From the IMG/VR virus record IMGVR_UViG_3300025580_000039, positions 5,619 through 69,618 of that record: a DNA stretch of 64,000 nt. One strand, 5' to 3'. Both the position numbers and the translations under genes were made by a program. A model generated the notes under the pieces. That model made no database searches. It was not told where the DNA came from and saw only the letters and a program-made list of their open reading frames with translations. Position 1 is the first letter of the stretch. Every line of letters starts with the position of its first letter. Of the stretch, positions 10,555 to 57,512 are shown piece after piece. The stretch is from a virus (lineage: Duplodnaviria; Caudoviricetes).

Positions 10555-11160
10555 TTAGATGAAACAGTAGTCGGCGGCCCTCGCGCGGGGCCCAGGGAAC
10601 GTCAAGCTCTCCCTCGTTCGGCTGATCGCCTGCCACGCGTGCCCAACGAGGCTGTCGCGACCGATGTGCTGAGCGAGGTTTGGGTAGTGCGTGTAGGCCG
10701 CGACCTTCGCGTCACCGATCCAGTCGGTGAGGAATCGGTCCCAGAAGTGGGCGCGGTGCGCCGGGTATCGTGCGCGGCACGCGCGAACCCCTTCGACCGC
10801 CGCCCCCACGAGGTTTCGACGGATGGCCATCAGGTACGTGTAGAACGACTGGTCGTCGATCGGGACCCACCCGCACCGCGTCAGGTACTTGAGGTTGCAG
10901 AACGACAGGAAACCTGCGTTCGCTGGAGCACGAGCGAGTAGCCTGGGTAGTACGGCGGCGAGGTCGGGCAGGCAGATGACGTCGTCCTCGGCACGCACGA
11001 CCCAATCGCTCGTCTGTTCGGCCGCCCCAACCTCCAGGGTCCTGAGTGCGTTCTCGGTCAAGCCACGACCATCATCCTCGACGAACGTGCAATCGAACCC
11101 AGGCAAGAGGCCCACGCGGGATTCGCGGCGGGCCGGGTGGCTCGTGACCGCTACCTTCAT
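10555..11160 (-). CDS. GT-A fold glycosyltransferase (GT25/GT2-like), 201 aa
   Basis: WVVRAEDDVI (EDD metal-binding motif) and YPNLAQHIG...SLVGH C-terminal motif. ATGA overlap with the fibre stop. Confidence 0.75.
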   Translation of the reverse strand: MKVAVTSHPARRESRVGLLPGFDCTFVEDDGRGLTENALRTLEVGAAEQTSDWVVRAEDDVICLPDLAAVLPRLLARAPANAGFLSFCNLKYLTRCGWVPIDDQSFYTYLMAIRRNLVGAAVEGVRACRARYPAHRAHFWDRFLTDWIGDAKVAAYTHYPNLAQHIGRDSLVGHAWQAISRTRESLTFPGPRARAADYCFI

Positions 11161-37999: not shown

Positions 38000-40693
38000 C
38001 TACTTGCCGCCCGGCTTGATCTGGGGGCTTCCCCCGCGGGTCGCCCGGATGGCGGTGGAGGGACGGGCGGCCGCCCTGGAGATCAAGACGGTGGGGGCGA
38101 TGGACGGCCGCACCGCCGGGGTACGGGCCGGGCCCGTGAAGACGATGGCGGCCGAGTCGGTGAACTCGATCGAGTCCCCTTGGGTCCGGTCGTACCAGAC
38201 CTCCCTGGCGAGCACGTCCAGGGCGGCGACCAGGTCGGCAATGGTCCGGTCGTACACGAAACCGGAGGCCGCCGAGTCGGTCAGGTCGATCGTGTCGGAA
38301 GCGGTACGATCCTGGGTGAAGTCGACGACGAGTGAGTCGGCCAGGGTGACGGCATCGGCAGCGAAGCGGGCGTAGTCGGTCTCACGGGAGGTCGTGTCGG
38401 ACGCGACAACCGTGTCGGATGCGGTCCGCCCGAACGCTGCGGTCTGCTCGCGGGCGTCCGCCACATCGACGGCGTCGACGACGGTCCGGCCGAATTCCGA
38501 TGCCGATGCAGCCGAGTCGGCCGCCGTGATGGTGTCGGCGAACTCGTAGGTGAAGACGCCGGACGCCTCCACCACGACCGTGTCGGCCAGGGCGACGGCA
38601 TCGGTCGCACCCCGCACGTAGCTGACTTCCCGTGCGCCCGTATCGGACGTGACGACCGTGTCGGACGCGGTCCGCCCGTACGTGAAATCGACGACAGCCG
38701 CATCCGAGAGGCTGATGGTGTCGGCCTGAGTCCGCTCGTACGCGAGGGCAGTGGCGACGGAATCGAGCGCCGAGACGGTGTCGGACCTGGACCGTTCGTA
38801 CTCGACCACCCGGCTGAGCGCGTCCGCCAGCGTGCTCGTATCGGACGCGTCCCGCCCAAACACGGCGGTCAGGGCGGCTTCGTCATCGAGGTCGATGGTG
38901 TCGACGACGGTCCGGTCGGACGTCTGCACCTGGGCGAGCGCGTCAGCCAGGGTGGCGGAATCGACTTCGGACCGGCTGTAGTCCGCTTCTCTGACGTGCC
39001 CGTCCGTGACGGCGATCGTGTCCGAGTGGGTCTGCTCGATTAGACCGCCGCCGCTCAATTCCGCGTCGGCCGAGTCGGTCAGGTCGATCGTGTCGGTCGC
39101 GGTCCTGGCGTACTCGCTGGCTGGTGCGGCCGCGTCGGAGGTCGACACGGCGTCCCCGACGGCCCGCGAGTAGCTCGACTCCCCCGTGGACGTGTCGGAC
39201 ACGTCGATCGCGTCCGCGGCAGCAAGAAGCAGCTCCCGCTCCGAGCGCACCGAGTCGGAGGTGCTGAGCGAGTCGGAGGCAGACCGATCGGCCGTGAACT
39301 CCTTGGCCGTCGTGTCGGAGGTGCTGAACGAGTCGGAGGCGGACCGGTCGAGCGTGAGGTCGCGGGCGGCCGAGTCGGAAGTGCTGACCGCGTCGGAGGA
39401 GGCGCGGTCGTAGCTGGCGGCATGCGCGACCGAGTCGGCAACGTCGATGGTGTCGGCGAAGGTCCGCTCGACGTACCCGGACGTTTCGAGTTCGACCGAG
39501 TCGGCCAGCGTGATGGAGTCGGAAGCCGTCCGGCTGGCGTCATGGGCCTGAGCGGTCGTGTCCGACGTCGAAACCGAGTCGGTGACGCTCCGCTCGAACT
39601 CCATCGTTCCGGTCGAAGAGTCCGAAGTGTCGATCGAGTCGGAGCCATCCCGGGCCAACTCGCGGGCGGTAACGACCGAGTCGGACGTGTCGATCGAGTC
39701 GGACGCGGACCGCGCCGAGTCCTGAACGACCGCGCCCGTGTCGGCCAGGCTGACGGAATCGGACGCGGACCGCGCCGAGTCCTGAACGACCGCGCCCGTG
39801 TCGGATGTGTCGATCGAGTCGGATGCCGAGCGGTCGGCTGTGAACTCCCGGGATGATGTGTCCGAAGTGCTGACCGAATCGGACGCGGACCGGTCAGCCG
39901 TCCACTCCCTGGAGGCCGTGTCGGCCAGGCTGACGGAGTCGGACGCGGACCGGTCAGCCGTCCACTCCCTGGAGGCCGTGTCGGCCAGGCTGACGGAGTC
40001 GGACGCGGCTCGCTCGAATGTCAGCTCGGTCGCAGCCGTGTCGGTCGTGGCGCCGATCGTGTCGTCGTTGAACCGGTTGTAATCGGTCGCGCCCGCCACC
40101 GAATCGGATGTGTCGATCGCATCGGCGCCCGCCCGGTCCTGCTCGGAGACGGTCGTGAGCGCATCCGCCAGCGTGACGGTATCGGCCCGGGTCGGCTCGT
40201 AGGTCGCCTCTCTCGTGTGCGAATCGGCGACGTCGATCGCGTCCGAGTAGGTCTGGTCGTAGACGGTCCCCCCGGTCGTGAACTCCTGGTCGTGGGTGTC
40301 GGCCGCCTCGATCGAGTCGGACCCGCTGCGGGCGTAGTCGGCTTCGGTGGTGCGGGCGTCCGTGACCTCGAACGAGTCGGAGGCGTCTCGCCCGTACGTC
40401 AGGTCTTGGACGTGCGCATCCCCGAGGGCAATGAGATCGCGGTTGGACCAGACCTGATAGGTCGTCTCGTTGGTGAGGGCGATGGTGTCCGAGTAGGTCT
40501 GGTCGTAGACCTGCCCGCCCTGCGAGCCCCACAGGTACTTCTGGTCGGCCGTGCCGGTTGAGGGTGCGCCCTCCTGCGAGGTGAAGCCGTCGGCCCGGCC
40601 GCGCGTCCAGATCGATGCGTCCCTACCGGCCTGGGCCTTTGCAGGCGCCCAGCCCGTGAACCCCCCGATACGGCCGTTACGAAGGAACGCCAC
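38000..40693 (-). CDS. Ser/Thr/Asp-rich 20-aa-repeat fibre-like protein, 897 aa
   Basis: Most of the protein is the unit R.ASDS(V/I).(T/L)(S/A)D; basic Pro/Arg C-terminal tail. Confidence 0.85.
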   Translation of the reverse strand: MAFLRNGRIGGFTGWAPAKAQAGRDASIWTRGRADGFTSQEGAPSTGTADQKYLWGSQGGQVYDQTYSDTIALTNETTYQVWSNRDLIALGDAHVQDLTYGRDASDSFEVTDARTTEADYARSGSDSIEAADTHDQEFTTGGTVYDQTYSDAIDVADSHTREATYEPTRADTVTLADALTTVSEQDRAGADAIDTSDSVAGATDYNRFNDDTIGATTDTAATELTFERAASDSVSLADTASREWTADRSASDSVSLADTASREWTADRSASDSVSTSDTSSREFTADRSASDSIDTSDTGAVVQDSARSASDSVSLADTGAVVQDSARSASDSIDTSDSVVTARELARDGSDSIDTSDSSTGTMEFERSVTDSVSTSDTTAQAHDASRTASDSITLADSVELETSGYVERTFADTIDVADSVAHAASYDRASSDAVSTSDSAARDLTLDRSASDSFSTSDTTAKEFTADRSASDSLSTSDSVRSERELLLAAADAIDVSDTSTGESSYSRAVGDAVSTSDAAAPASEYARTATDTIDLTDSADAELSGGGLIEQTHSDTIAVTDGHVREADYSRSEVDSATLADALAQVQTSDRTVVDTIDLDDEAALTAVFGRDASDTSTLADALSRVVEYERSRSDTVSALDSVATALAYERTQADTISLSDAAVVDFTYGRTASDTVVTSDTGAREVSYVRGATDAVALADTVVVEASGVFTYEFADTITAADSAASASEFGRTVVDAVDVADAREQTAAFGRTASDTVVASDTTSRETDYARFAADAVTLADSLVVDFTQDRTASDTIDLTDSAASGFVYDRTIADLVAALDVLAREVWYDRTQGDSIEFTDSAAIVFTGPARTPAVRPSIAPTVLISRAAARPSTAIRATRGGSPQIKPGGK
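39700..40008. repeat. Near-exact 60-bp coding tandem repeats
   Basis: Period 60 at 39879-40008 (DRSASDSVSLADTASREWTA) and about 39700-39800 (ARSASDS...DTGAVVQDS). Confidence 0.9.
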
Positions 40694-40696
40694 CCG

Positions 40697-41809
40697 TCAG
40701 CTCCAGACGAACCCCAGGTTACCGATGAAGCCGCCCGTGTTGTTCGTGGATGTGAACAGCAGCATCGACAGACACGCGGTGTCGTAGACGATGGGGTGGC
40801 CTTCGATCTGCTGGATGGCATCCACAGGGTGCCAGCGACCGGACGTGCTGTGCTGGATGAGGTAGCCGAGCGGGCGGACCAACGCGACGCAGAACGTCCC
40901 CGTCGGCGCCGCCGAGAACGTGTAGGTCTGGACGCTGCGGACCCCGCTGTCACCGGATGCGAGCGGCAGGAACGGGGGACCCCACAGGACCGAAGCGCCC
41001 GAGTCCGCGGGTGCGATGATGCGGGCGCCGAGCGTGTAGGACCCTTGCGTGGCGCTCACGATGATGGCGACCGTCCTGGTCGTCGGCATCGCGGCTGAAC
41101 CGTTGCCGTCTTGATCGGTGTAGGTCAGCTCCGAGATGTTGGCGGCGGTCGCGTTGGTGGTGGTCTCGACCTCCACCATCGCCTTGAGCCCGCCCTCACC
41201 TGCTCCGATGTACCGCTGGGCCGCCACCCCGTTCGTCATGGACTGCTGGGCCGCGTTGAAGTTGCACGCCTCGTAGGTGAGGACGCGGTCGTACAGCATG
41301 ACGTCGCAGGGCGAGAACCCCGAGTCGAGCATCTGCGAGTAGAAGAGGTATCGGGTGTCTGGATCGACGTTTCCGCCTAGCGCGAACGCGCCAGTGGTGG
41401 ACCCGTTCTTCTGGACGGCAACCCGCGCCGATCCACCGAACGCGCCCCCTTCCGACACGCCCCCCACGGTCCAGAGGTCGTACCAGTTGAGCGCGACCCC
41501 ACCCGTCGACATCCGCTTGCTGACCCAGACCTCGCGCTTCTGCCCAGACGACGCAGCCGCGATGGCATCGTCGTAGCTGCCGATGGCGCAGCGGTAGCCG
41601 GCGCGGGGCTTGGCGATGAGGACGTCGGGTCGATCGACAAACCCCTGCGCAATCCCGATCGCTCGGCCCCCGAAGATGACGGGCAGGGGGACGTCAACAC
41701 CGCGTGCCATGCGGGCGGCCCGCAAGAGGGCCCGGTCCTCGTCGAGGGGGCCCAGCCGCGTCTTCGACCGGGTGTGGATGGCGGGACCGCGATCAACCCC
41801 AAGCTGCAT
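40697..41809 (-). CDS. Appendage paralog H3 (370 aa; start probably 41809)
   Basis: Family motifs GPLDEDRA, WYDLW, GGNV..DT, LYDRVLTYEAC.FNA, YTD.DGN...MPT, PLA.GD.GVR, IYD.AC.S. Confidence 0.8.
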   Translation of the reverse strand: MQLGVDRGPAIHTRSKTRLGPLDEDRALLRAARMARGVDVPLPVIFGGRAIGIAQGFVDRPDVLIAKPRAGYRCAIGSYDDAIAAASSGQKREVWVSKRMSTGGVALNWYDLWTVGGVSEGGAFGGSARVAVQKNGSTTGAFALGGNVDPDTRYLFYSQMLDSGFSPCDVMLYDRVLTYEACNFNAAQQSMTNGVAAQRYIGAGEGGLKAMVEVETTTNATAANISELTYTDQDGNGSAAMPTTRTVAIIVSATQGSYTLGARIIAPADSGASVLWGPPFLPLASGDSGVRSVQTYTFSAAPTGTFCVALVRPLGYLIQHSTSGRWHPVDAIQQIEGHPIVYDTACLSMLLFTSTNNTGGFIGNLGFVWS

Positions 41810-42893
41810 CGAAGCCACCCTGGATGTAGAAGTTGTTGTTGTCGGCCGTGTGGGCGAACAGCGACAGGCACGCTCCGTCGTAGATGCGGTTCAGCGAGAC
41901 CATCTGGCGGACGAAGTCGAGGTCGGCCGGAACGCCAGCCGTCTCCAACGGGATGATGGCGGTTGGCCGGCAGCACACGAAGCACATCGTCCCCGTGTTG
42001 GCCGCCGACGTCGTGAAGTCGTTGATGAGACGGACGCCGGTGTCGCCGTTGGCAAGCGGGAGGAACAGGGTGGACCGACCACCACCGCCAGCATCCACGA
42101 TGGAAAGGACACGAGCCCCCAGCGCGGAAGTCGGTGCAGCGGCGTCCTGCTGGATCCCCACCGTCGTGGTGGTCGGCATCGACTGCGTGGCGTTGCCGTC
42201 GTTGTCGGTGTAGCGCATCTGGGTAAGATTGGAGGACGTACCACCCAGGAGCGTCTGGCCCGTCAGGGACACGAGCAGGCCCGGCTCACCCGCCGAGATC
42301 CACCGCTGAGCCGCGACGCTGTTGGTCATCGACTGGTTGACGCTCGCGTTGAACGAACACGCCTCGTAGGTGAGGACGCGGTCGTACAGGACGAGGGCGG
42401 GAGGTCCGCCACCGCTCGGTTGGCTGGCGACCGCCCACGCGTGCGTGAGGTGGCGGGTGTCGGTCGAGACGTTGACGCCGATCGGGATGCCACCGGCGGT
42501 CGCCTGCGAAATCTGGACGGCCGTGTAGGCGGCACCCGCGTACCCGCCGCCCTCCGGGTCGCCCTTGACCGGCCAGAGATCGTACCACAGCGAGCCGCCG
42601 GCCGCCTGCGAGGTCATCGCCTTCGAGAAGACCTGGCTGAGCACCTTGGGCGACGCGGCCGTGATCTCGGCGATGAAGTCGTCGAAGGTGGTAAACGGTG
42701 CCAGGTGGCGGCGCTCCCGCGTGTAGTCGACGCGGTCGCAACACCGGCACCCGTGAACCCAACCGACGTGACGGCCGCCCGAGATGACGGCCAGGGGGGC
42801 GGGGATCCGTCGAGCCGAGCGGGCGGCTCGACGGAGCGCTCGCTCTACACCCCGATCGGAACGGACATCCCGGAGGGTGAGCGCTTCAGCCAT
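41793..42893 (-). CDS. Appendage paralog H2 (366 aa; start 42893/42896, not 43175)
   Basis: Same motif set; TGATG overlap with the H1 stop. Confidence 0.8.
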   Translation of the reverse strand: MAEALTLRDVRSDRGVERALRRAARSARRIPAPLAVISGGRHVGWVHGCRCCDRVDYTRERRHLAPFTTFDDFIAEITAASPKVLSQVFSKAMTSQAAGGSLWYDLWPVKGDPEGGGYAGAAYTAVQISQATAGGIPIGVNVSTDTRHLTHAWAVASQPSGGGPPALVLYDRVLTYEACSFNASVNQSMTNSVAAQRWISAGEPGLLVSLTGQTLLGGTSSNLTQMRYTDNDGNATQSMPTTTTVGIQQDAAAPTSALGARVLSIVDAGGGGRSTLFLPLANGDTGVRLINDFTTSAANTGTMCFVCCRPTAIIPLETAGVPADLDFVRQMVSLNRIYDGACLSLFAHTADNNNFYIQGGFDAAWG

Positions 42894-43984
42894 CATCCCC
42901 ACGATACCTCCATGCCGCCTGATGTGATGCGCCCCGACGTGTCGCCTGGCCGCACGATCGCGCTGATGCAGGCGCCGTCGTAGATGCGGGGCAGGCGATT
43001 GCGCATGAGGATCTCGTCCTCGTTGGTACCGAGCCCGAAGGTCGTGATCGGCACCATCGCGATCGGGTACAGCAGGGTGAACGTCAGGGTCCCCGTGTTG
43101 GCCGCCGACGTCGTGAAGTCGTTGATGAGGCGGACGCCAGTATCGCCGAAGGCGAGCGGCATGAACGGACCCCACGGCAGCGCGGCGCCCGAGTCGGCTG
43201 GCGCGACCACCTGGGCGCCGAGCGTTGTCGAGGGTGCCGACGCGGAGACGATGTGCGAGACCGTCACGGTCGTGGGCATCGACTGCGTCGCGTTGCCCTC
43301 CTGGTCGGTGTAGCGAAGCTGAGTGAAGTCCGACGGGGTCGCCCCGAGCGCCGACTCCACCGTCACCATGATCTTGAGACCGGGCTCACCGGCGGCGATG
43401 TAGCGGAGTGCCGCCACCCCGTTGGTCATCGACTGGTTGACGCTCGCGTTGAACGAGCACGCCTCGTAGGTGAGGACGCGGTCGTAGAAGAGGAGGACGG
43501 CCCTGTCCGAGGACGACCCCCACACCGAAGTCACGTGCTTGGTGTCGGTCGAGACGTTCCCTCCCAGGAACAGGCTGCCCGCCTCGGTGTCGTCGTGCCG
43601 CTTGGCCGTGTAGGCGGTCCCGCCGTACGCCCCCGCACCTGGCAACCCCTGGCAGGGCCAGAGGTCGTACCAGCAGTTGGCCGTGTGGGACGCGGTCGCC
43701 TCCTTGTGCCAGGCGGTCGCCAGCTTCTTGTTCTTGGTGCGCTCGCTGAGGAGGTCGGCGTACGTCGTCCAGCCCAGACGCATCGGGTCACGGCGCCAGT
43801 GGACGTGGGGGGACGGCGCACGCTCGCCCATCACCCACCCGAGCACCCGGCCCCTCCATACCACAGGGAGAGGGACGTCGATGCCGCGGGACGCGTGAAC
43901 GGCACGCTTGAACGCGCGGTCCTCGTCGAGAGGGCCGGCAACGCTCTTGCGGGGGACGTGGATGGCTGGTGCGAGCTGCATCAT
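42893..43984 (-). CDS. Appendage paralog H1, 363 aa
   Basis: Same motif set; ATGA overlap upstream. Confidence 0.8.
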   Translation of the reverse strand: MMQLAPAIHVPRKSVAGPLDEDRAFKRAVHASRGIDVPLPVVWRGRVLGWVMGERAPSPHVHWRRDPMRLGWTTYADLLSERTKNKKLATAWHKEATASHTANCWYDLWPCQGLPGAGAYGGTAYTAKRHDDTEAGSLFLGGNVSTDTKHVTSVWGSSSDRAVLLFYDRVLTYEACSFNASVNQSMTNGVAALRYIAAGEPGLKIMVTVESALGATPSDFTQLRYTDQEGNATQSMPTTVTVSHIVSASAPSTTLGAQVVAPADSGAALPWGPFMPLAFGDTGVRLINDFTTSAANTGTLTFTLLYPIAMVPITTFGLGTNEDEILMRNRLPRIYDGACISAIVRPGDTSGRITSGGMEVSWG

Positions 43985-45174
43985 AGGGTCGTCACGATCT
44001 CCAGCACGAGGTAGCTGGCGCGGTCGTAGATGGTTCCGACGCGATCGACTCCATCGGTCACGTCGATCGTATCGGACGGCGTCCTTGCAGTCTCCAGACC
44101 CGCGGTGGTCGCGTCGGTCAGCTCGACGGTGTCGGCATGGGTCTGGTCAAACGCGCCGGAAGTGAATTCCTGCGTGACCGAGTCGGACAGGTCGATCGTG
44201 TCGGAACCGGTGCGCTCGTAAGAGGCGACCTGCTCGACCGAGTCGGACAGGTCGATGGTGTCGGCGGCCTCTTCCGAATGGTCCGTGCCGGCTGTGGCCG
44301 AGTCGGTGAGGTCGATGGTGTCGGAGGCTTCACGGTCGTACGTCTGGGCGCCCTGCGTGAACTCCTGGTCGTGCGTGTCGGAGAGGGTGAGCGTATCGCT
44401 AGCGGTACGCTCACACGCACACGTCTGAGCAAGCGAGTCCGACGTGGAGACCGTGTCGGAAGCGGTCCGGTCGTAGACCGTTCCCGTCGTCGAGACGGAA
44501 TCGGACGTCGAGACGGTGTCGTCGCCGCCACCCTCCTGGAGGCCGTCCAGCTCCAGGACGATGCAGCCCCACGCGCCCGTCTGCGTAGCGGCAGACGTGA
44601 TCGTCGTGCCCGTGAAGCCCGTGTCGCGGGTCGCACCCTCGCACGCGGTGGTCGGCGACGACTGGCTCGCGTCCTGCCGCTCCGTCCAGCTTGTCGGCGC
44701 CGTGGTCGTCGTGTCGGCCGACCCACAGAAGAAGATGGTCGGGTTGGTCGTGAGGGCCGCTTGGTCGAGCGCGGCTGCCGGCGCCACACCGGTAGCGCCC
44801 TCCGCCTTGCCCGACGACCTCACCGCCGCCGAGCCCGTCTTGGTCATCCTGGAGAACGCCAGAACAACCAACTCGCCGGCCGTGTTGGAGCCGGTCGCCG
44901 CCGTGATGGTGTGCGAGTTGGTGTTGGCGCAGAGCTGGTCGCGAACAAACACGGACATGCGGTCCGCGTTGGCGCCCGTCATGTCGCAGGTCTGGTTCTG
45001 GATGAGCGTGTAGGTGCCGGACTGGTCGTCCGACATGGTCGGCGTGTTGTTCGTGTTGGCCGAAACGACTACACAGACGACGAGAAGGTCGCCGATCGCA
45101 GGAGTGAAGGCGACAGACCGATTACCAGTGGAAGCAGAGCCGCCACCTGCTCCGCTTGCTCGGTAGACGGCCAC
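43981..45174 (-). CDS. Beta-sandwich domain plus Ser/Thr/Asp repeat protein, 397 aa
   Basis: N-half GDLLVVCV...S.WTERQD resembles phage lectin-like/decoration domains; C-half carries the same R.ASDTI..SD repeats as 38000..40693. Confidence 0.8.
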   Translation of the reverse strand: MAVYRASGAGGGSASTGNRSVAFTPAIGDLLVVCVVVSANTNNTPTMSDDQSGTYTLIQNQTCDMTGANADRMSVFVRDQLCANTNSHTITAATGSNTAGELVVLAFSRMTKTGSAAVRSSGKAEGATGVAPAAALDQAALTTNPTIFFCGSADTTTTAPTSWTERQDASQSSPTTACEGATRDTGFTGTTITSAATQTGAWGCIVLELDGLQEGGGDDTVSTSDSVSTTGTVYDRTASDTVSTSDSLAQTCACERTASDTLTLSDTHDQEFTQGAQTYDREASDTIDLTDSATAGTDHSEEAADTIDLSDSVEQVASYERTGSDTIDLSDSVTQEFTSGAFDQTHADTVELTDATTAGLETARTPSDTIDVTDGVDRVGTIYDRASYLVLEIVTTL

Positions 45175-45522: not shown

Positions 45523-46110
45523 TCAGGTCACCCGGCATTTGTACGTGACCTTGAGCTTGTCGGCCGTCGTCTTGTTGACGACCGGTGACAGGACCACGCG
45601 GGCCATCATCGAGCCGCCCGGCGTCGTCTGCATGTCGAGGACGGCCAACTCACCGATGCCCGTCGCCGACAGCGTGCCGCCGCCCGATATCCACGAGTAC
45701 ATCCACCGGAACGTCCGGCCGGCCGACAGCGTGAACGCCGTGCAGGTGTGGATGGTGGACGTGATGGCCGTGATGACGTTCGTCTGGGCCGACCCAGCCG
45801 CCACTGTGTTGCGGCCCAGCCGGAAGTGATCGAACACCCGGCCGGCCGTGATCGAGCCGATGGCGAGGCGGAGGAGCCGCTTCTTCCCCACGTTGACGAC
45901 GAGGTTGGGGTGGACGGTGCGGCGCAGGCACACGATCCCGTTGGGACCGGCGCGGAACAGCTCGACCGTCGCCCAGCCGCGGACCACGTGGATCTTGTCG
46001 TGCAGGCTGGCGGGCGTCATCCGCTTCCACACGCCGACGAGCAGCGCGAGGAACGCGCCCCACACGCGCAGCCAAAGGGCGCGCAACCAATCACGCATCT
46101 TCGTCATCAT
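45523..46110 (-). CDS. Fibre-attachment (tail-collar-fibre/DUF3751-like) protein, about 195 aa (start 46110)
   Basis: NLVVNVGK, F.LG, GIGELAV, MMARVV...VNKT..DKL.VTY pattern; N-terminal Trp-rich hydrophobic stretch; AAGGAG RBS. Confidence 0.6.
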   Translation of the reverse strand: MMTKMRDWLRALWLRVWGAFLALLVGVWKRMTPASLHDKIHVVRGWATVELFRAGPNGIVCLRRTVHPNLVVNVGKKRLLRLAIGSITAGRVFDHFRLGRNTVAAGSAQTNVITAITSTIHTCTAFTLSAGRTFRWMYSWISGGGTLSATGIGELAVLDMQTTPGGSMMARVVLSPVVNKTTADKLKVTYKCRVT

Positions 46111-47947
46111 CTCCGTCTCCTTGTCGGGCTGCCCGGCGGGCAAGCGCATCCTCGAAGAGGCGTACGTTGTCGCGCGCCTCGGCCATGACTTCTTCGGGCG
46201 CGTCGTCGGGGATCTGCTCGACGACGATACGCGCCCACTTCAACCCTTCGTCCAGCAGACCCATCTCCCCGCAGACCATCGCGAGCCGTTGGGCCGGCAA
46301 GTACGTGTAGAACGGGCCGTCGTACCACCACTGCGTGATGGGCGCGTCACCGATCCGGACGGCCGAATACTTGTAGAACACGTGGGCCTGTTGGAGCTGG
46401 CCGGTCGCGTGCGCGAGGTCGCCCAGCATCAGCCAGTGCTCCGTGCGAGCCCAGTCGTCGAACGACATCGAATGGAGGAGCTGACGGGCCGTCTTGACGT
46501 CGTTGCGGCACTGCACCAGCAGCTTGGCCAGCACGAACTTGGCCATGTAGCGCATGGGCCCGTTCTTCGACGGCATCGCGATCAATTCTTCGAGGTACCG
46601 GATGGCCCGCTCGTCGTCGTACTCGCGCCACTCGAAGCCCAGGTAGAGGAGGGCGCCCTCCGAGCCCGTCTCCCGCCAGTCCTCCATGAGGGACAAGCGG
46701 TTCTGTACCTTGCGTTGCCCCCGCCGGAACTCCGTCCGCTCGTGGACGCGGTCGTGGATCGTCATGACGCCTGGGAGCAGGACGGCAAGCGAACCCTCGG
46801 GGTAGACGAGGAAGTTGTGAGTAGGACGCTTGAAATGGATGTTGTCCGGGTCGTTCCGGAACAGCCACTCGAAGAACCACTTGTCGCGCTGGCCGTGCGC
46901 CGTCCGCTGGACGACCCCGATCTTGGCGCCCTCGGGCAGCGCTTCGTCGAGGTGGAGGAGGATGTCCTGCCCCTTGCCGAGCCGTTCGTGTGCTTCGGTC
47001 ATGAAGATCCAGTCGCCCGAGCACTCCCGGATGCAGCGGTTGCGGCAGTGGGAGAAGTGGACCTGGGGGGCCTGGTCGTCGGGCGGACCCTGGGGGTCGT
47101 CGATGATGAAGACCTTCTCGGCGTACCTGCGGGCGATCTCCTCGGTGTTGTCCTTCGTGCGGTAGTCGATCCCGATCACCATCTCGTCGGCGATGCCGCG
47201 GAACGACGCGAGGGTGGCTTCGATGTCGGCCGCCTCATCGCGGGCCGGGAAGGTCACGCTGAGCGTGTAGGGCTTGTCGGCAAGGTCGCCGCACACGCCG
47301 AGCAGGAAGGGACCCATCACCTCGACGCGGCAGCGCTTCCCCCAGAACTCGCGCAGCAGCGTCAAGAACTCCAACGCCGTCCACTTGATCGTGTGCTGGG
47401 GCTCCTCGTCGGGGCCGAGCCGGTTGTTCGGCACCGAGAAGATGGCGCAGCCGGCCTCTTCGCTGGCCGCAGCAAGCAGACGGCGCCGCGCTCGATCGGA
47501 CAAGTGCTCCAGCACCTCCGTCGCCACGACGGCCGGGTGGGATTCGGCGACCAGGAAGCGCGGTGGGTTGGCCTCCGCCTCCAGGTCCACATTCAGCGTC
47601 TCGATGCCGGCGTCCTGCGCGATGCGCAGTGCCGACTCGCTGTGGTCCCACACGACGGTCCACAGCCCCTTCGCGGCGATCTGGGCCGCGAGAAGGCCGG
47701 CGCCCCCGCCGACATCGTAGACGGGCCCGTACGTCAGCCCACGACCGGTCCCCTTCGAGAGCAGCTTGGTGATCCGCTTGTAGACCCGTTCGAGCGCATG
47801 CTGCCGCCACGAGTCCTCCCCCTCCCGCTTCCAGATCCCATCCCAGAGGTCCCGCGCGTTGGCCGCACGGGCCCTGCGCTCCGCAGCCTCCCGGACGGCC
47901 TCCTCGATGGACGGCGAGCCAGTCAGCTCCATAGCCGCCTCACCCAT
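46091..47947 (-). CDS. SAM methyltransferase - GT2 glycosyltransferase - TPR fusion, 618 aa
   Basis: YDVGGGAG and ATEVLEHL (class I MTase); LSVTFPARDE...DEMVIGID...D.TEEIA...FSHCRN...GDWIFMTEAHE (GT2); helical TPR-like C-terminus (EHWLMLGDL.....QA..FY). Confidence 0.9.
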   Translation of the reverse strand: MGEAAMELTGSPSIEEAVREAAERRARAANARDLWDGIWKREGEDSWRQHALERVYKRITKLLSKGTGRGLTYGPVYDVGGGAGLLAAQIAAKGLWTVVWDHSESALRIAQDAGIETLNVDLEAEANPPRFLVAESHPAVVATEVLEHLSDRARRRLLAAASEEAGCAIFSVPNNRLGPDEEPQHTIKWTALEFLTLLREFWGKRCRVEVMGPFLLGVCGDLADKPYTLSVTFPARDEAADIEATLASFRGIADEMVIGIDYRTKDNTEEIARRYAEKVFIIDDPQGPPDDQAPQVHFSHCRNRCIRECSGDWIFMTEAHERLGKGQDILLHLDEALPEGAKIGVVQRTAHGQRDKWFFEWLFRNDPDNIHFKRPTHNFLVYPEGSLAVLLPGVMTIHDRVHERTEFRRGQRKVQNRLSLMEDWRETGSEGALLYLGFEWREYDDERAIRYLEELIAMPSKNGPMRYMAKFVLAKLLVQCRNDVKTARQLLHSMSFDDWARTEHWLMLGDLAHATGQLQQAHVFYKYSAVRIGDAPITQWWYDGPFYTYLPAQRLAMVCGEMGLLDEGLKWARIVVEQIPDDAPEEVMAEARDNVRLFEDALARRAARQGDGDDDEDA

Positions 47948-53066: not shown

Positions 53067-54272
53067 TTACGGCTTCGCGCCCTTCGCGACCGCCCGAGCG
53101 TTCGGGATGCCGAAGCCGATGATCTCGCAGAACGCCCATCCCTTGACGGTCTCCTGCGTGACGAACCGGTTGTACGGCTCCGAGAACAGCTCGACCCGGA
53201 CGCCCATCTCTCCGAGGTACTCGGAGCCCGTGACCGCGTAGAAGGTTCCCGCGGGCACGACTTCCTCGACGCCCGTACCGGCCGTCGTGATGATCTGGGC
53301 GTTCAGGTAGTTGCCGATGTAGCCGGCGAGGATGAGTTCCCGCTCGGTCACCGGGTCGACGGTCGTCGACATCGTCTTGATGATGTCCGAGAGTTCCGCA
53401 CGGTTGATGAGGAACTTCTCGACGATCAGACGGTGCCGCTCGACCTGGTAGCGCACGTCCTCGAACGCGCCCGTCCCGAGGGACGTGAACGTCGTGGCCG
53501 TGTTGACCGCGGTCGAGGCACGGTCGAGCAGCAGGCGACCGCGCTTGTCCTCGTTCAGCTCGATCTCCTGCCGCGCGGTGTCCTGCGCGCGATCGAGCAC
53601 GTCGTAGTTCATCTGGTAGATGTCGAAGATGTCGACGCTCGTGAAAGCGACGATCTTCGTCTCATCCGGCTGGATGTACCGACCGTGGAGGCGAGCCTCG
53701 ATGGCCTGTCCATCCTGACCGACGACGAACGCGACGCTGCGAACGTCCTTCGCGATCCTGAACAGCTCGCCCTGCGCGAGCGGACGCACGCGGTACACCT
53801 TGCGCGCCCATCCCTCGTAGTCGACGATGTCCTTGATCGGAAGGAGGAGTTCCTGACCGACGAGGGCGAAGCCCTCCCCGGTCGGGTCCTGAAGCGCCTG
53901 GGCCACGATGTTCATCTTGGCCTGACGCTCCTGGAGGGACTCGCGCTGAGCAGCCGCCTTCATGATCGACTGCTGAGCGCCCGGGCCCACGTTCTGGAGC
54001 AGGTGGGCGATCTGCCGAAGGACATCTCCGTTGTCGTAGGCGGACATCTGCCCCGACTTGTCGAACATGCGGTCCTTCGACTCCGCACGGCCCGACCCCG
54101 GACCGGTCTTGCGACCGGCCTGGCGGAGGGGGTTGAGCTGCCCAGACTCGTCCCACACACGCTCCTCCGCCTTCGACGTCGGAGTGTGGCGGACGCTGCC
54201 GAGCGGCAGGCCCCTCGATGCGACCTTGGGTGTTCCGGACTGGGAGGTCCGGAACGGATTCACTCGTTCCAT
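53067..54272 (-). CDS. Major capsid protein (HK97 fold), 401 aa
   Basis: LLLPIKDIVDYEGWARK...LAQGE...KD, DRAQDTARQEIELNED and final GW...E.IGF...N.RAV; follows protease and decoration genes. Confidence 0.9.
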   Translation of the reverse strand: MERVNPFRTSQSGTPKVASRGLPLGSVRHTPTSKAEERVWDESGQLNPLRQAGRKTGPGSGRAESKDRMFDKSGQMSAYDNGDVLRQIAHLLQNVGPGAQQSIMKAAAQRESLQERQAKMNIVAQALQDPTGEGFALVGQELLLPIKDIVDYEGWARKVYRVRPLAQGELFRIAKDVRSVAFVVGQDGQAIEARLHGRYIQPDETKIVAFTSVDIFDIYQMNYDVLDRAQDTARQEIELNEDKRGRLLLDRASTAVNTATTFTSLGTGAFEDVRYQVERHRLIVEKFLINRAELSDIIKTMSTTVDPVTERELILAGYIGNYLNAQIITTAGTGVEEVVPAGTFYAVTGSEYLGEMGVRVELFSEPYNRFVTQETVKGWAFCEIIGFGIPNARAVAKGAKP

Positions 54273-55100: not shown

Positions 55101-57512
55101 TCAGGAGTTGGTCGGCCCTTTGCCGATGGACCCCAGCGCCTTGGCAGCCTCGCGCATGCGCACGAAGCCAGGCCGACCGACACTTTCGCGGATCGCGATC
55201 CGCTTCTCTTCCCGGGCCTCGACCGTCCTGGCGGACGTCTTCAGCACCGGGTTGCCCCCGAGCGCGCGGCTCTCCATCTCCATCGAGCGCGCCGACCGCA
55301 CCCGCTCTCCGCTCGGCACGACCGTCACGGTCGGAGCGGCGAGGGCATGGCGGAGGTCGCGTTCGGAGTCGGTGATGACGCGGTCGTCGAGGGTGTAGAG
55401 CTGCTTGGCGCGAGCGATCAAGCTGGCGAGATGGTCGGGCATGCCTTCCTGCATGCCGCGCTCGACCAGCATGGCGGTCAGGTCGGTCTCGCAACCTGGC
55501 CACGACTCGTTCGCGTTGATGTCGAAGGGGGTGAGGAGCGCGTCGGCCATCGCGGCCTTGAGGGGCGACTCCTCCCGGTTGAGCCGCTGGCGCTCGGAGG
55601 CGAGCTTCAGGCAGCGCTCGAACCGCGCCATCATGTCCTGCGCCTTCTTGGTCGCCAGCTTCTCGACGCGGCCCTCGATGGCCGCCAGCTTCCCCTCCCA
55701 CTCCTTCTGCTGGGCGGCGATCTTGCGCTGGAAGTACGTCTGGATCCGGGCGACCCGCTCGGAATGGTCGTGGACCTCGTCGGCGAGCATCTCGTCCCCG
55801 ATGCCACGGTCGGCCGGTTCGTCGCGGCGGTCGGAGTCGTGGTCACCGAGCGAGTCGAGCGAGTCGGCCGACACGTCGTCGATGTCGGCCGCGTTGCTCA
55901 CGCGGTCGTCGATCACGCTCGCGGGCCCCTTGCCCGACGTCTCCTGCTGGTCGGTCGCGCGGTCGCGCGCCGAATCGGTCGCGGGCTTGCCGAGCGCGTC
56001 GGTCAGGTTGTCCTCGTTGCCTTCGAGGACGGGGGCCTGCCCGTCGACCGCGTCGGTCAGGTTGTCGTCGTGGTGTTCGAGCACCTGGGAGCGCTTGGGG
56101 ATCGCGCGGAACCGGCGCATCGCCTGGTCGAGGCCGTAGTGGGCGATGTGCCTGATGAGGACGTCGCAGAACTGGACGGCCTGCTTGCGGTTGGCGAGGC
56201 GACCGGGCGCTCGGACGGCGAACAGGGTCCGACCGGTCCGCTCGTCGTACACGCGGAAGTTGCCCTGCTTGGTCGCGGCGACCGCGATGTTGGCGTACCG
56301 GCTGGCGTACCTGCGCGACAGCCGGCGGGCCGCCACCGACATGATCCCCATGTCGGCGTCGGACATGGGGGCCTGGTCCTCCAGGTCCCTCTTGTCCTTG
56401 TACTGCTCCATCGCATCCGGCGGGCCGGCGGCCGGGGCCGGCATGGGGGCCGGCTCCAACAAGCCGTCATCCTCGGCGATGGGCATGTCGCCCTCGCCCG
56501 CGAACGGCATCATCCCGGCGGCCGGCGGGGCGGCCGGCGGGGCTTCCTGGGCCATGATCGGCGCTTCCTCCTCCATCGGCGGGCCCATCGGCTGGGCGGC
56601 CTTGGGGGGCGGCGGGATCTGGGCGGGAGCGGGGGCCTGCTGGGCGGTGCGGTTCGTCATGGTCGTTTCCTTCACGTGGGCGAGCGCCTCGGCGAGCTGC
56701 TGCTCCACCTTCGCGAGCCGGCTCTTGAGGACGAGCAGCTCGGACTCGGCCCCAAGCTGCTCGGACTCGGCGATCTTGGCCTGGAGGGAGAGGACTTCCT
56801 GGGTGAGGGCCTTCGGGTCAGCCGGCTGGTCGACCGCTGACAGCTCCTCGTAGCAGACGCCCCCGCATCGCTCGTAAGCGAGGATGCCGTCGAACTCCTT
56901 CATCTTGTGGTTGGCGATGTGGCGACAGAACTGCCACCTGTTCGTCGCCTTGTTCGCGCAGACCGAACAGATGGTGTACTCCGCCACGCACCCCATCGAG
57001 AACGAGTCGATCGCACCCGTCCGGATGCCGTCCGCGTAGACCGGGTCCTTCGACCCGTCGATCGCGATCAAGCACTCGACGTACTGGTCGTCCGGGTTGG
57101 TCCGGTTGAACGTCGAGTCGACGATGAAGCCGCGGGCCGTCTTGGGGTTGTCGGCCCTGTGGTTGATGTGGTTGGGCTTGAGGTCGAACGTCTTGTAGAC
57201 CCGTCGGGCCAACCGGTGATCGAACCGGAGGAGTTCTTCGAGGGGGAAGGCGTCGCCGTTCTCGTTGGGAGCAGGGCGGTCGGGGGACAGCTCGGCCGTC
57301 ACGGCCCGCGCGACCACGAAGATGTAGTCGGACGGCGTCTTGGACACATCGTAGGCGTCGGCGACCAGCAGGAGGGCCTGCTGGAAGTCGATGGTGGACG
57401 GGACACCTCCACCGTAGGCGCTTTCGCCACCTCCTACTTGGGCCCGACGACGGAGTTGACCATCATCCAGCGACCCGACGATTACCGCGCGAGCAGCCTT
57501 GCGGAACGGCAT
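55101..57512 (-). CDS. Capsid maturation protease fused to a scaffold-like region, 803 aa
   Basis: NENGDAF..EEL...YKTF..KP..INH...ARG.IVD; FSMGC....CSVC.N...FC.H; ELSAVDQPADP; then a P/A/E linker and coiled coils. Confidence 0.85.
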   Translation of the reverse strand: MPFRKAARAVIVGSLDDGQLRRRAQVGGGESAYGGGVPSTIDFQQALLLVADAYDVSKTPSDYIFVVARAVTAELSPDRPAPNENGDAFPLEELLRFDHRLARRVYKTFDLKPNHINHRADNPKTARGFIVDSTFNRTNPDDQYVECLIAIDGSKDPVYADGIRTGAIDSFSMGCVAEYTICSVCANKATNRWQFCRHIANHKMKEFDGILAYERCGGVCYEELSAVDQPADPKALTQEVLSLQAKIAESEQLGAESELLVLKSRLAKVEQQLAEALAHVKETTMTNRTAQQAPAPAQIPPPPKAAQPMGPPMEEEAPIMAQEAPPAAPPAAGMMPFAGEGDMPIAEDDGLLEPAPMPAPAAGPPDAMEQYKDKRDLEDQAPMSDADMGIMSVAARRLSRRYASRYANIAVAATKQGNFRVYDERTGRTLFAVRAPGRLANRKQAVQFCDVLIRHIAHYGLDQAMRRFRAIPKRSQVLEHHDDNLTDAVDGQAPVLEGNEDNLTDALGKPATDSARDRATDQQETSGKGPASVIDDRVSNAADIDDVSADSLDSLGDHDSDRRDEPADRGIGDEMLADEVHDHSERVARIQTYFQRKIAAQQKEWEGKLAAIEGRVEKLATKKAQDMMARFERCLKLASERQRLNREESPLKAAMADALLTPFDINANESWPGCETDLTAMLVERGMQEGMPDHLASLIARAKQLYTLDDRVITDSERDLRHALAAPTVTVVPSGERVRSARSMEMESRALGGNPVLKTSARTVEAREEKRIAIRESVGRPGFVRMREAAKALGSIGKGPTNS

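What the first reader, a model, noticed from the sequence alone, without database searches (positions are those of the whole stretch)
46091..47947. Candidate virion glycosylation-methylation enzyme: MTase-GT2-TPR with the DxD motif changed to EAH
Seen: three domains in one ORF. The GT2 region follows the usual GT2-TPR pattern, but WI.xLDADE reads WIFMTEAHE (~46985-46996). The gene sits in the late operon immediately upstream of the Ser/Thr/Asp-repeat fibre block. Established: GT2-TPR enzymes glycosylate proteins and peptides (flagellin GTs, SunS-type), the TPR selects the substrate, and DxD binds the metal-nucleotide sugar. Inference: a phage system that adds and methylates a glycan on virion appendages, with altered metal or donor chemistry, possibly for shielding or adhesion. 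With the second GT this could be an undescribed two-enzyme virion-glycan pathway.
Basis: partly seen in the sequence, partly recalled or inferred. Interest (0 to 1): 0.8.

Follow-up and report, generated by a model that had tools for sequence, protein, structure and literature searches.

The report
Phage methyltransferase-glycosyltransferase-TPR fibre-modifying enzyme
A large uncultured phage encodes a three-domain enzyme (methyltransferase, sugar transferase, protein-docking repeats) that is found only in phages and always sits just before fibre-like virion genes, so it probably decorates those fibres with a (possibly methylated) sugar, but no experiment shows this yet.

Summary
ORF 46091-47947(-) encodes a 618-aa class I methyltransferase + GT-A glycosyltransferase + TPR protein. 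WIFMTEAHE lies at 46985-47011, and E318/H320 align with the DxD aspartates of Listeria GmaR.

E-(G/A)-H is not a one-off change. Every one of about 150 close homologs has it. In a tree these form one clade (support 0.99), nested among D-x-H relatives and separate from classical D-x-D GT2-TPR proteins. The other nucleotide-sugar and SAM motifs are invariant, so the enzyme is probably active.

The family was found only on viral contigs, many of them 100-450 kb. In 29 of 29 loci the gene is followed directly by a roughly 160-aa protein with a tail-fibre-tip-like fold. In most loci a protein built of 20-aa Ser/Thr/Asp repeats also lies downstream. The closest published relative, Virus Rctr197k, lacks the enzyme, the fibre-tip protein and the repeat protein together. 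Three small phages have the fibre genes without the enzyme, but the enzyme never occurs without them.

My best reading, at about 0.5, is an accessory enzyme that glycosylates virion fibres and may methylate the sugar. The proposed "second GT" pathway is not supported, because that gene is absent from five relatives.

The scan noted this same family on five other genomes, as first-reader notes only.

The parts
46091..47947 (-). Gene for the 618-aa methyltransferase-GT-A-TPR fusion enzyme (P0001)
   Evidence: ORF and translation. More than 275 full-length homologs at about 50% identity. AF2 model pLDDT 90.7.
47273..47860 (-). Class I SAM methyltransferase domain (about residues 30-225). D78/G80/G81/G84 (DxGGGxG), D101, T143-E144-x-x-E147-H148 and the SVPNxRLGPDEEPQH block are invariant or nearly so.
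   Evidence: Pfam Methyltransf_12/23/25 just under cut-off. UbiG is the best match by sequence. VIA Z about 17-18 to many class I methyltransferases, all tied. Invariant columns.
46748..47272 (-). GT-A (GT2) glycosyltransferase domain (about residues 226-400)
   Evidence: PF00535 28 bits, above cut-off. GmaR GT domain E 7.6e-11 with motif-by-motif alignment. SunS/ThuS fold matches.
46985..47011 (-). WIFMTEAHE: the DxD-equivalent loop, with E318-A319-H320 followed by E321
   Evidence: Translation. Alignment to GmaR DAD. E318, H320 and E321 invariant in A1. ExH in 149/149 high-scoring relatives.
46115..46744 (-). TPR-like helical repeat domain (about residues 402-611), the presumed substrate-docking part
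   Evidence: AF2 helices 402-611. Profile hits to consensus TPR proteins, E 1.6e-7. Aligned to the SunS/ThuS C-terminal domain. TPR Pfam families precomputed on homologs.
45523..46020 (-). Conserved protein of about 160 aa (phrog_5417), beta-sandwich with a tail-fibre-tip-like fold. It is always the next gene after the enzyme. An alternative start at 46110, with a GGAG SD, would add a hydrophobic N-terminus.
   Evidence: PHROG hit. Directly downstream in 29/29 loci. Alignment A2. Model pLDDT 81. BFVD matches to HHTV-1 protein and to Xanthomonas/Stenotrophomonas phage tail fibres. HFTV1 tail chain 9h4p_BD. Start-site sequence.
43981..45174 (-). 397-aa protein: globular N-terminal half plus C-terminal Ser/Thr/Asp 20-aa repeats. 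Candidate substrate.
   Evidence: Translation. Motif count. tblastn relatives downstream of the enzyme in many loci.
40697..43984 (-). Three tandem paralogous genes of about 360-370 aa (40697-41818, about 41793-42900, 42893-43984) lying between the two repeat proteins. Function unknown.
   Evidence: Translations show shared blocks. No Pfam or PHROG hit. One homolog in the same position in L020/L025.
38000..40693 (-). 897-aa protein made almost entirely of 20-aa Ser/Thr/Asp repeats (60-nt period). Candidate substrate.
   Evidence: Translation. TRF period 60, 74-86% matches. 21 motif copies. Related repeat proteins downstream of the enzyme in other phages. No PDB sequence relative.

Best explanation
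This is an active, cytoplasmic, phage-encoded protein-modifying enzyme made late in infection. It works on the fibre-like virion proteins encoded just downstream.

Proposed mechanism:
- The TPR domain docks the target. The target is either the 20-aa Ser/Thr/Asp repeats or the small fibre-tip-like protein.
- The GT-A domain binds a nucleotide sugar through the conserved R-D-E, G-x-D and R-N motifs. It binds a divalent metal through E318 and H320, probably with H377 or H398.
- The GT-A domain then transfers a single sugar to Ser/Thr, as GmaR does on flagellin and SunS does on its peptide.
- The fused SAM methyltransferase then methylates that sugar or, less likely, the protein.

The enzyme is an accessory add-on to a fibre cassette that can also exist without it.

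Shown here: domain identity, motif position and conservation, restriction to viral contigs in the collections searched, and synteny. Inferred: catalytic activity, the substrate, and what gets methylated.
For: 1. Fold and family. The GT-TPR part matches SunS/ThuS (Foldseek E 4e-14; VIA Z 22). It also matches the GmaR GT domain (E 7.6e-11).
2. Signs of activity. The GmaR alignment shows every GT2 donor-binding motif kept (RDE on KNE, GvD on VD, RN on RN, two His on two His), with only DxD changed. E318, H320, E321 and the SAM-binding DxGGGxG are invariant over 43 sequences at about 50% identity. ExH is present in 149/149 high-scoring members.
3. Single origin. ExH forms one clade (0.99) inside a DxH+ExH clade (0.94), apart from DxD proteins.
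4. Phage restriction. There are 31 full-length loci in IMG/VR. In 185,579 species genomes there are only two weak partial matches.
5. Synteny. The fibre-tip-like gene is directly downstream in 29/29 loci. In the reverse test the enzyme is directly upstream of 32 of 35 close homologs of that gene. Ser/Thr/Asp repeat proteins lie downstream in about 21-23 of 27 informative loci. The capsid gene lies 12-35 kb upstream on the same strand in four records of 240-452 kb.
6. Presence or absence as a unit. Virus Rctr197k has a 66%-identical capsid protein and colinear head-neck genes, but lacks the enzyme, the fibre-tip protein and the repeat protein. In L016 the block sits on the other side of the g37099 homolog.
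7. Asymmetric dependence. Three small phages carry the fibre-tip and repeat genes without the enzyme. The enzyme never occurs without them.
8. Precedent. Mycobacteriophages glycosylate capsid and tail-tube proteins with their own glycosyltransferases (Freeman et al. 2023, as cited in PMC12363180 and PMC12619734).
Against: - There is no biochemical or proteomic evidence of any kind, and all members come from uncultured phages.
- Synteny shows linkage but not an enzyme-substrate relation.
- The fibre genes work without the enzyme in three phages, and some enzyme-bearing loci (L004, L014, L018) show no recognisable repeat protein within 10 kb.
- The canonical DxD is absent, so loss or change of activity cannot be excluded from sequence alone.
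- The methyltransferase domain is a generic class I fold. All structural matches are tied at Z about 17, so its substrate class (sugar, protein or other) is open.
Confidence: 0.5

Rival explanations
1. The enzyme glycosylates a different virion protein, such as the capsid or tail tube as in mycobacteriophages Che8 and Corndog. Its position before the fibre cassette would then reflect only shared late expression.
For: The only documented phage virion glycosylation targets are capsid and tail-tube C-termini (cited). The gene lies in the head-to-neck region, 5 kb from the capsid gene here and 12-35 kb from it in relatives. Some loci lack recognisable repeat proteins.
Against: Linkage to the fibre-tip gene is far tighter (29/29 and 32/35) than linkage to the capsid gene, whose distance varies. 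Rctr197k keeps a 66%-identical capsid protein and lacks the enzyme together with the fibre cassette.
Confidence: 0.15
2. The enzyme modifies a host molecule (a surface protein such as flagellin or pilin, or an envelope glycan) to block superinfection or aid release, rather than modifying the virion.
For: The closest characterised relative, GmaR, glycosylates flagellin. Phage glycosyltransferases that alter host serotype are well known. The genes just upstream were read by the first-stage reader as a lysis-like cassette (note e1-5851128, unchecked).
Against: The gene is embedded in the structural module on the same strand and is translationally coupled to its neighbours. It is strictly syntenic with phage fibre genes in phages of very different G+C content (52-67%), which probably infect different hosts. 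A host target would not explain that.
Confidence: 0.12
3. The GT-A domain is a pseudoenzyme. The protein would then act through its TPR domain as an assembly chaperone or adaptor for the fibres, perhaps with only the methyltransferase still active.
For: The canonical DxD is missing. TPR proteins often act as chaperones or scaffolds. GmaR shows that this architecture can take on a non-enzymatic second function.
Against: All donor-binding motifs and E318/H320/E321 are invariant over about 150 sequences at roughly 50% identity, which is what an intact active site would show. D-x-H is a working metal site in other GT-A enzymes (my own knowledge: polypeptide GalNAc-transferases, GT27), and E for D is a conservative change.
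Confidence: 0.1
4. The enzyme matures a small secreted glycopeptide (glycocin-like, as SunS does), not a structural protein.
For: SunS and ThuS are the best structural matches.
Against: No short Cys-containing precursor, transporter or immunity gene was noticed among the neighbouring ORFs (not searched for specifically). The SunS equivalog model scores 10.7 bits against a cut-off of 350. The conserved neighbours are fibre-like proteins.
Confidence: 0.03

Closest known systems
Listeria monocytogenes GmaR (flagellin O-GlcNAc transferase; GT2 domain + TPR; PDB 22ao for the GT domain)
   Same: It is the best sequence match in the PDB (E 7.6e-11). It has an N-terminal GT-A domain followed by TPR repeats and shares the same donor-binding motifs and the two conserved histidines. 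Its substrate is a Ser/Thr-rich filament protein.
   Different: GmaR has a canonical D-A-D, no methyltransferase domain, and a C-terminal anti-repressor domain that this protein lacks. It is bacterial, not phage-encoded. Identity is low.
SunS / ThuS glycocin S-glycosyltransferases (PDB 7msn, 7msp, 7msk)
   Same: They are the best fold matches over GT-A plus the helical TPR-like domain (Foldseek E 4e-14, VIA Z 21.6-22.1). They are peptide- or protein-directed GT2 enzymes. SunS is itself encoded by the SPbeta prophage.
   Different: Identity is 14-17%. The NCBIfam SunS equivalog is far below its cut-off. Their substrates are Cys residues in small secreted peptides. They have no methyltransferase domain.
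Mycobacteriophage virion glycosylation systems (Che8, Corndog, Myrna; Freeman et al. 2023)
   Same: These are phage-encoded glycosyltransferases that modify the phage's own virion proteins and are accessory rather than universal.
   Different: tblastn of this enzyme against 50,697 phage records finds no match, so no sequence relation was detected. Their targets are capsid and tail-tube C-termini. No MTase-GT-TPR fusion has been reported for them. Their hosts are actinobacteria, whereas this family sits in uncultured large and jumbo phages.
D-x-H metal site of polypeptide GalNAc-transferases (GT27) (my own knowledge, not tested here)
   Same: It is a GT-A protein O-glycosyltransferase in which the second Asp of DxD is His. 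The metal is completed by a downstream His.
   Different: It belongs to an unrelated GT family and has D, not E, at the first position. Here the comparison is by analogy only.

Membership tests
GT2 / GT-A glycosyltransferases (Pfam PF00535) | Sequence match to the family model above the curated cut-off | tested here: met
   28 bits against a cut-off of 23.3, residues 230-357. The same match appears in five relatives.
GT2 / GT-A glycosyltransferases (Pfam PF00535) | GT-A Rossmann-like fold with N-terminal nucleotide-binding acidic motifs | tested here: met
   AF2 model with Foldseek/VIA matches to SunS, ThuS and WrtF. RDE, GxD and RN align to GmaR KNE, VD and RN.
GT2 / GT-A glycosyltransferases (Pfam PF00535) | Canonical D-x-D metal/diphosphate-binding motif | tested here: not met
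   The position reads E-A-H here and E-(G/A)-H in 149/149 close relatives. D-x-H relatives exist in the same superfamily.
GT2-TPR protein/peptide glycosyltransferases (GmaR, SunS, ThuS type) | GT-A domain followed directly by a TPR-like helical repeat domain, with detectable homology over both | tested here: met
   Profile hits to GmaR (7.6e-11) and SunS (1.6e-4). Structural alignment spans 226-616.
GT2-TPR protein/peptide glycosyltransferases (GmaR, SunS, ThuS type) | Transfers a sugar to a protein or peptide side chain | not testable with these tools
   Needs enzyme assays or mass spectrometry.
SunS family peptide S-glycosyltransferase (NCBIfam TIGR04195, equivalog) | Score above the equivalog cut-off | tested here: not met
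   10.7 bits against a cut-off of 350.
Class I SAM-dependent methyltransferases | Rossmann fold with a glycine-rich SAM loop and an acidic residue after strand 2 | tested here: met
   D78/G80/G81/G84 invariant and D101 nearly invariant. VIA Z 17-18, rmsd 2.5-3.0 over about 175 residues, to many methyltransferases.
Class I SAM-dependent methyltransferases | Pfam model above the curated cut-off | tested here: not met
   Methyltransf_12 scores 26.1 against 30, and Methyltransf_23 scores 24.5 against 27. Many homologs do carry these families in the precomputed annotation.
Mycobacteriophage virion glycosyltransferases (Che8 gp110 / Corndog gp38 type) | Sequence homology to those enzymes | tested here: not met
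   tblastn against the INPHARED phage records gives no match at E 1e-3.

The most novel reading that the evidence does not exclude
This would be a phage-only lineage of GT-A enzymes that uses an E-x-H metal site and is fused to a methyltransferase. It would install methylated monosaccharides along the 20-aa Ser/Thr/Asp repeats of accessory fibres in large and jumbo phages. That would be the first virion glycosylation system outside actinobacteriophages, the first to be fibre-directed, and the first to couple glycosylation and methylation in one polypeptide.
Probability: 0.3. Interest if true: 0.7.

Novelty: new variant of a known kind. Interest (0 to 1): 0.55.

Why it matters
Virion glycosylation has so far been demonstrated only in a few mycobacteriophages, where it shields particles from antibodies. 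This family would extend the idea to widespread uncultured large and jumbo phages and to fibres rather than capsids.

It also gives a compact, single-polypeptide candidate for heterologous testing: the enzyme plus a 20-aa repeat peptide. The invariant E-x-H site, derived once from a D-x-H branch of the GT2-TPR superfamily, is a clean natural series (DxD, then DxH, then ExH) for asking how GT-A metal sites tune metal or donor choice.

The limits are that no member is cultured and that nothing about activity has been shown.

Tried and rejected
I took genomic context from the search for related loci instead.
- PHROGs gave no family for the enzyme. tblastn against 50,697 phage records gave no match.
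- Complex prediction of GT-TPR (226-618) with the downstream 165-aa protein returned 'no answer' (score 0.00). This counts neither for nor against binding.
- I considered a specific Hen1-like (metal-dependent ribose 2'-O) methyltransferase because of the E-x-x-E-H block. I rejected it as a specific claim: UbiG shares that block and all class I methyltransferase matches are tied at Z about 17.
- The second GT (10555-11160) gave no Pfam, NCBIfam or PDB sequence hit. It is GT-A-like only by ESM Atlas features and structure. It has no match in five related records, so I dropped it as a pathway partner.
- A PDB sequence search with the 897-aa repeat protein found nothing.
- The listing of cluster members gave no organism names for NCBI-sourced homologs or for D-x-H relatives, so the host remains unknown.
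- Literature searches found no description of this fusion family. The Freeman 2023 paper itself is not held and is cited second-hand.
Full report
**Where the gene sits.** The window is 64 kb of a 69.6-kb IMG/VR virus record that CheckV rates as about 40% complete, with about 67% G+C. On the minus strand it carries a late structural operon in this order:
- a head protease fusion (55101-57512)
- the major head protein (53067-54272, phrog_2522, E 2e-55)
- several unknown genes
- the target ORF
- fibre-like genes
- further on, tape-measure-like genes

**The observation.** ORF 46091-47947(-) encodes 618 aa.
- Its ATG is preceded by GGAGGAGG and overlaps the upstream stop codon.
- Pfam gives GT2 above its cut-off (28 against 23.3 bits, residues 230-357). 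Three class I methyltransferase models score just below theirs (residues 52-189).
- An AlphaFold2 model built on 43 homologs is confident (pLDDT 90.7, pTM 0.86). It shows a Rossmann methyltransferase, a GT-A domain and a helical repeat domain spanning 402-611.
- Foldseek and VIA-align put SunS and ThuS, the GT2-TPR S-glycosyltransferases, first (E 4e-14; Z 22). Generic class I methyltransferases follow at Z about 17 for residues 20-225.
- A family profile finds the glycosyltransferase domain of Listeria GmaR as the best solved relative (E 7.6e-11). In that alignment RDE, GxD, RN and two histidines match GmaR's KNE, VD, RN and two histidines. The family's 'tEgHe' lies on GmaR's 'iDaDe'.
- WIFMTEAHE translates from 46985-47011.

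**Is E-A-H a one-off or a family trait?**
- A database search finds more than 275 proteins, nearly all full-length at 45-55% identity.
- In a 43-sequence alignment E318, H320 and E321 are invariant, and position 319 is Gly or Ala. The SAM loop (D78, G80, G81, G84) and a striking SVPNxRLGPDEEPQH block are also invariant.
- A profile search of 1.84 billion representatives gives about 30 tight clusters. It then falls off to a very large GT2-TPR superfamily (15,306 hits at E up to 0.001).
- I read the motif column in all retrieved proteins. All 149 with high scores have E-x-H. Among the more distant relatives, 47 have D-x-H (typically LDGHE) and 57 have D-x-D (LDADE). Three distant MTase-GT-TPR proteins have D-x-H.
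- A FastTree of the GT-TPR region used 107 sequences: 25 random close members plus all others with at least 80% coverage, midpoint-rooted. All E-x-H proteins fall in one clade (support 0.99, with one D-x-N exception). That clade sits inside a D-x-H + E-x-H clade (0.94), separate from 30 of the 31 D-x-D proteins.

The motif is thus a fixed, once-derived variant: DxD, then DxH, then ExH. Conservation of the whole active-site set argues for an active enzyme. D-x-H is a working metal site in other GT-A enzymes (my own knowledge, GT27), and E for D is a conservative change.

**Who carries it?**
- IMG/VR yields 31 loci with near-full-length relatives, on contigs of up to 452 kb.
- One representative genome from each of 185,579 prokaryote species yields only two weak partial GT matches. 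That scan relies on near-invariant peptide patterns.
- In four large records (240-452 kb; one 94% complete, one with terminal repeats) the capsid gene lies 12-35 kb upstream on the same strand.

**Synteny.**
- tblastn of the window's neighbouring proteins against these loci shows one invariant neighbour. The gene at 45523-46149 (phrog_5417) follows the enzyme directly in 29 of 29 loci that have downstream sequence.
- Homologs show that the conserved protein is about 150-165 aa.
- Its model (pLDDT 81) is a beta-sandwich. It matches a Haloarcula tailed virus 1 protein, annotated tail fibres of Xanthomonas and Stenotrophomonas phages, and tail-collar fibre proteins (BFVD, E down to 3e-10). It also matches a chain of the Haloferax tailed virus 1 tail (9h4p_BD, E 1.9e-4).
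- Proteins built of the same 20-aa Ser/Thr/Asp repeat lie downstream on the same strand in roughly 21-23 of 27 informative loci. The repeat has a 60-nt period.
- In the reverse test, 32 of 35 informative loci with a close homolog of the fibre-tip-like protein have the enzyme directly upstream.
- The three exceptions are small phage records of 20-47 kb, one of them 100% complete. They have no enzyme anywhere in the record. There the fibre-tip-like gene and a repeat protein follow a long tail-fibre-like gene.
- The closest published relative is Virus Rctr197k, from a methane-oxidising enrichment culture, with a 66%-identical capsid protein. It keeps colinear protease, capsid, g51686, g37099 and g35712 homologs. 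It has no match to the enzyme, the fibre-tip-like protein or the repeat protein in its 197 kb.
- In L016 the block lies on the other side of the g37099 homolog.

Together these results show a fibre cassette that is gained, lost and moved as a unit. The enzyme is an optional first gene that never travels without the cassette.

**Mechanism.** By analogy with GmaR (O-GlcNAc on flagellin) and SunS, the most economical reading runs as follows:
- The TPR domain docks a fibre protein.
- The GT-A domain transfers one sugar from a nucleotide sugar, held by an E318/H320-bound metal.
- The fused methyltransferase modifies that sugar, or possibly the protein.

In four of five related large phages this is the only PF00535-type GT, which fits a monosaccharide rather than a built-up glycan. 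None of this is shown. The methyltransferase fold gives no clue to its substrate. The complex prediction with the fibre-tip-like protein returned no answer.

**The 'second GT'.** The 201-aa gene at 10555-11160 has no Pfam, NCBIfam or PDB sequence match. ESM Atlas places it among small viral GT-A-like proteins (feature score 0.98, TM 0.81), so it may well be a glycosyltransferase. However, it lies 35 kb away and has no match in five related records. A conserved two-enzyme pathway is therefore not supported.

**Comparison with what is known.** The enzyme belongs to the GT2-TPR protein glycosyltransferase superfamily by fold and profile. It fails the canonical DxD feature and the SunS equivalog cut-off. 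It has no detectable sequence relation to the mycobacteriophage virion glycosyltransferases. Their biology is the nearest precedent. I found no paper describing this fusion family. The scan's own index shows first-stage notes on the same family in five other genomes, none followed up.

**Verdict.** This is a real, conserved family found only on viral contigs in the collections searched. It is a new variant of known kinds (GT2-TPR protein glycosyltransferases and phage virion glycosylation). The comparative case for a role in fibre modification is strong, but there is no functional evidence. Interest 0.55.

Noticed in passing
window 40697-43984 (-): Three tandem paralogous genes of about 360-370 aa lie between the two repeat proteins, with no Pfam or PHROG hit. 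One homolog occupies the same position in L020/L025. They may belong to the fibre cassette.
   Followed up: partly
L048 (KX853510.1, Virus Rctr197k, 39392-80486): This is the nearest published relative of the phage (capsid protein 66% identical, colinear head-neck genes). It comes from a nitrate-dependent methane-oxidising enrichment culture. It lacks the whole enzyme-plus-fibre cassette, which hints at the habitat and possible host range of the lineage.
   Followed up: partly
L056, L060, L061: Small phages (20-47 kb records, one marked provirus) carry the fibre-tip-like gene and a Ser/Thr/Asp repeat protein right after a long tail-fibre-like gene, with no enzyme in the record. The cassette is therefore shared between small and jumbo phages.
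   Followed up: partly
window 46020-46149 (-): The fibre-tip-like gene has two possible starts. ATGATG at 46110 has a GGAG Shine-Dalgarno sequence, overlaps the end of the enzyme gene, and would add a hydrophobic, transmembrane-like N-terminus that homologs lack. ATG at 46020 matches the length of the homologs.
   Followed up: partly
window 39245-40044 (-): The 897-aa repeat protein contains 60-nt tandem units at 74-86% identity, which suggests recent expansion or contraction of the repeat number.
   Followed up: no
window 10555-11160 (-): A 201-aa protein overlaps the stop of the 1502-aa fibre-like gene. It is GT-A-like only by ESM Atlas (mostly viral clusters) and has no match in five related large phage records.
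   Followed up: partly
alignment A1, columns about 395-425 (e.g. P0026, P0087, P0093): A subset of family members carries a Cys-rich insert (CxxC...C) inside the GT-A domain, between the PxGP loop and the RN motif. The window's protein lacks it. It could be a zinc-binding insertion.
   Followed up: no
L010 9116-9940: In one 301-kb phage a protein with similar Ser/Asp repeats also lies directly upstream of the enzyme gene, so the enzyme is flanked by repeat proteins on both sides.
   Followed up: no
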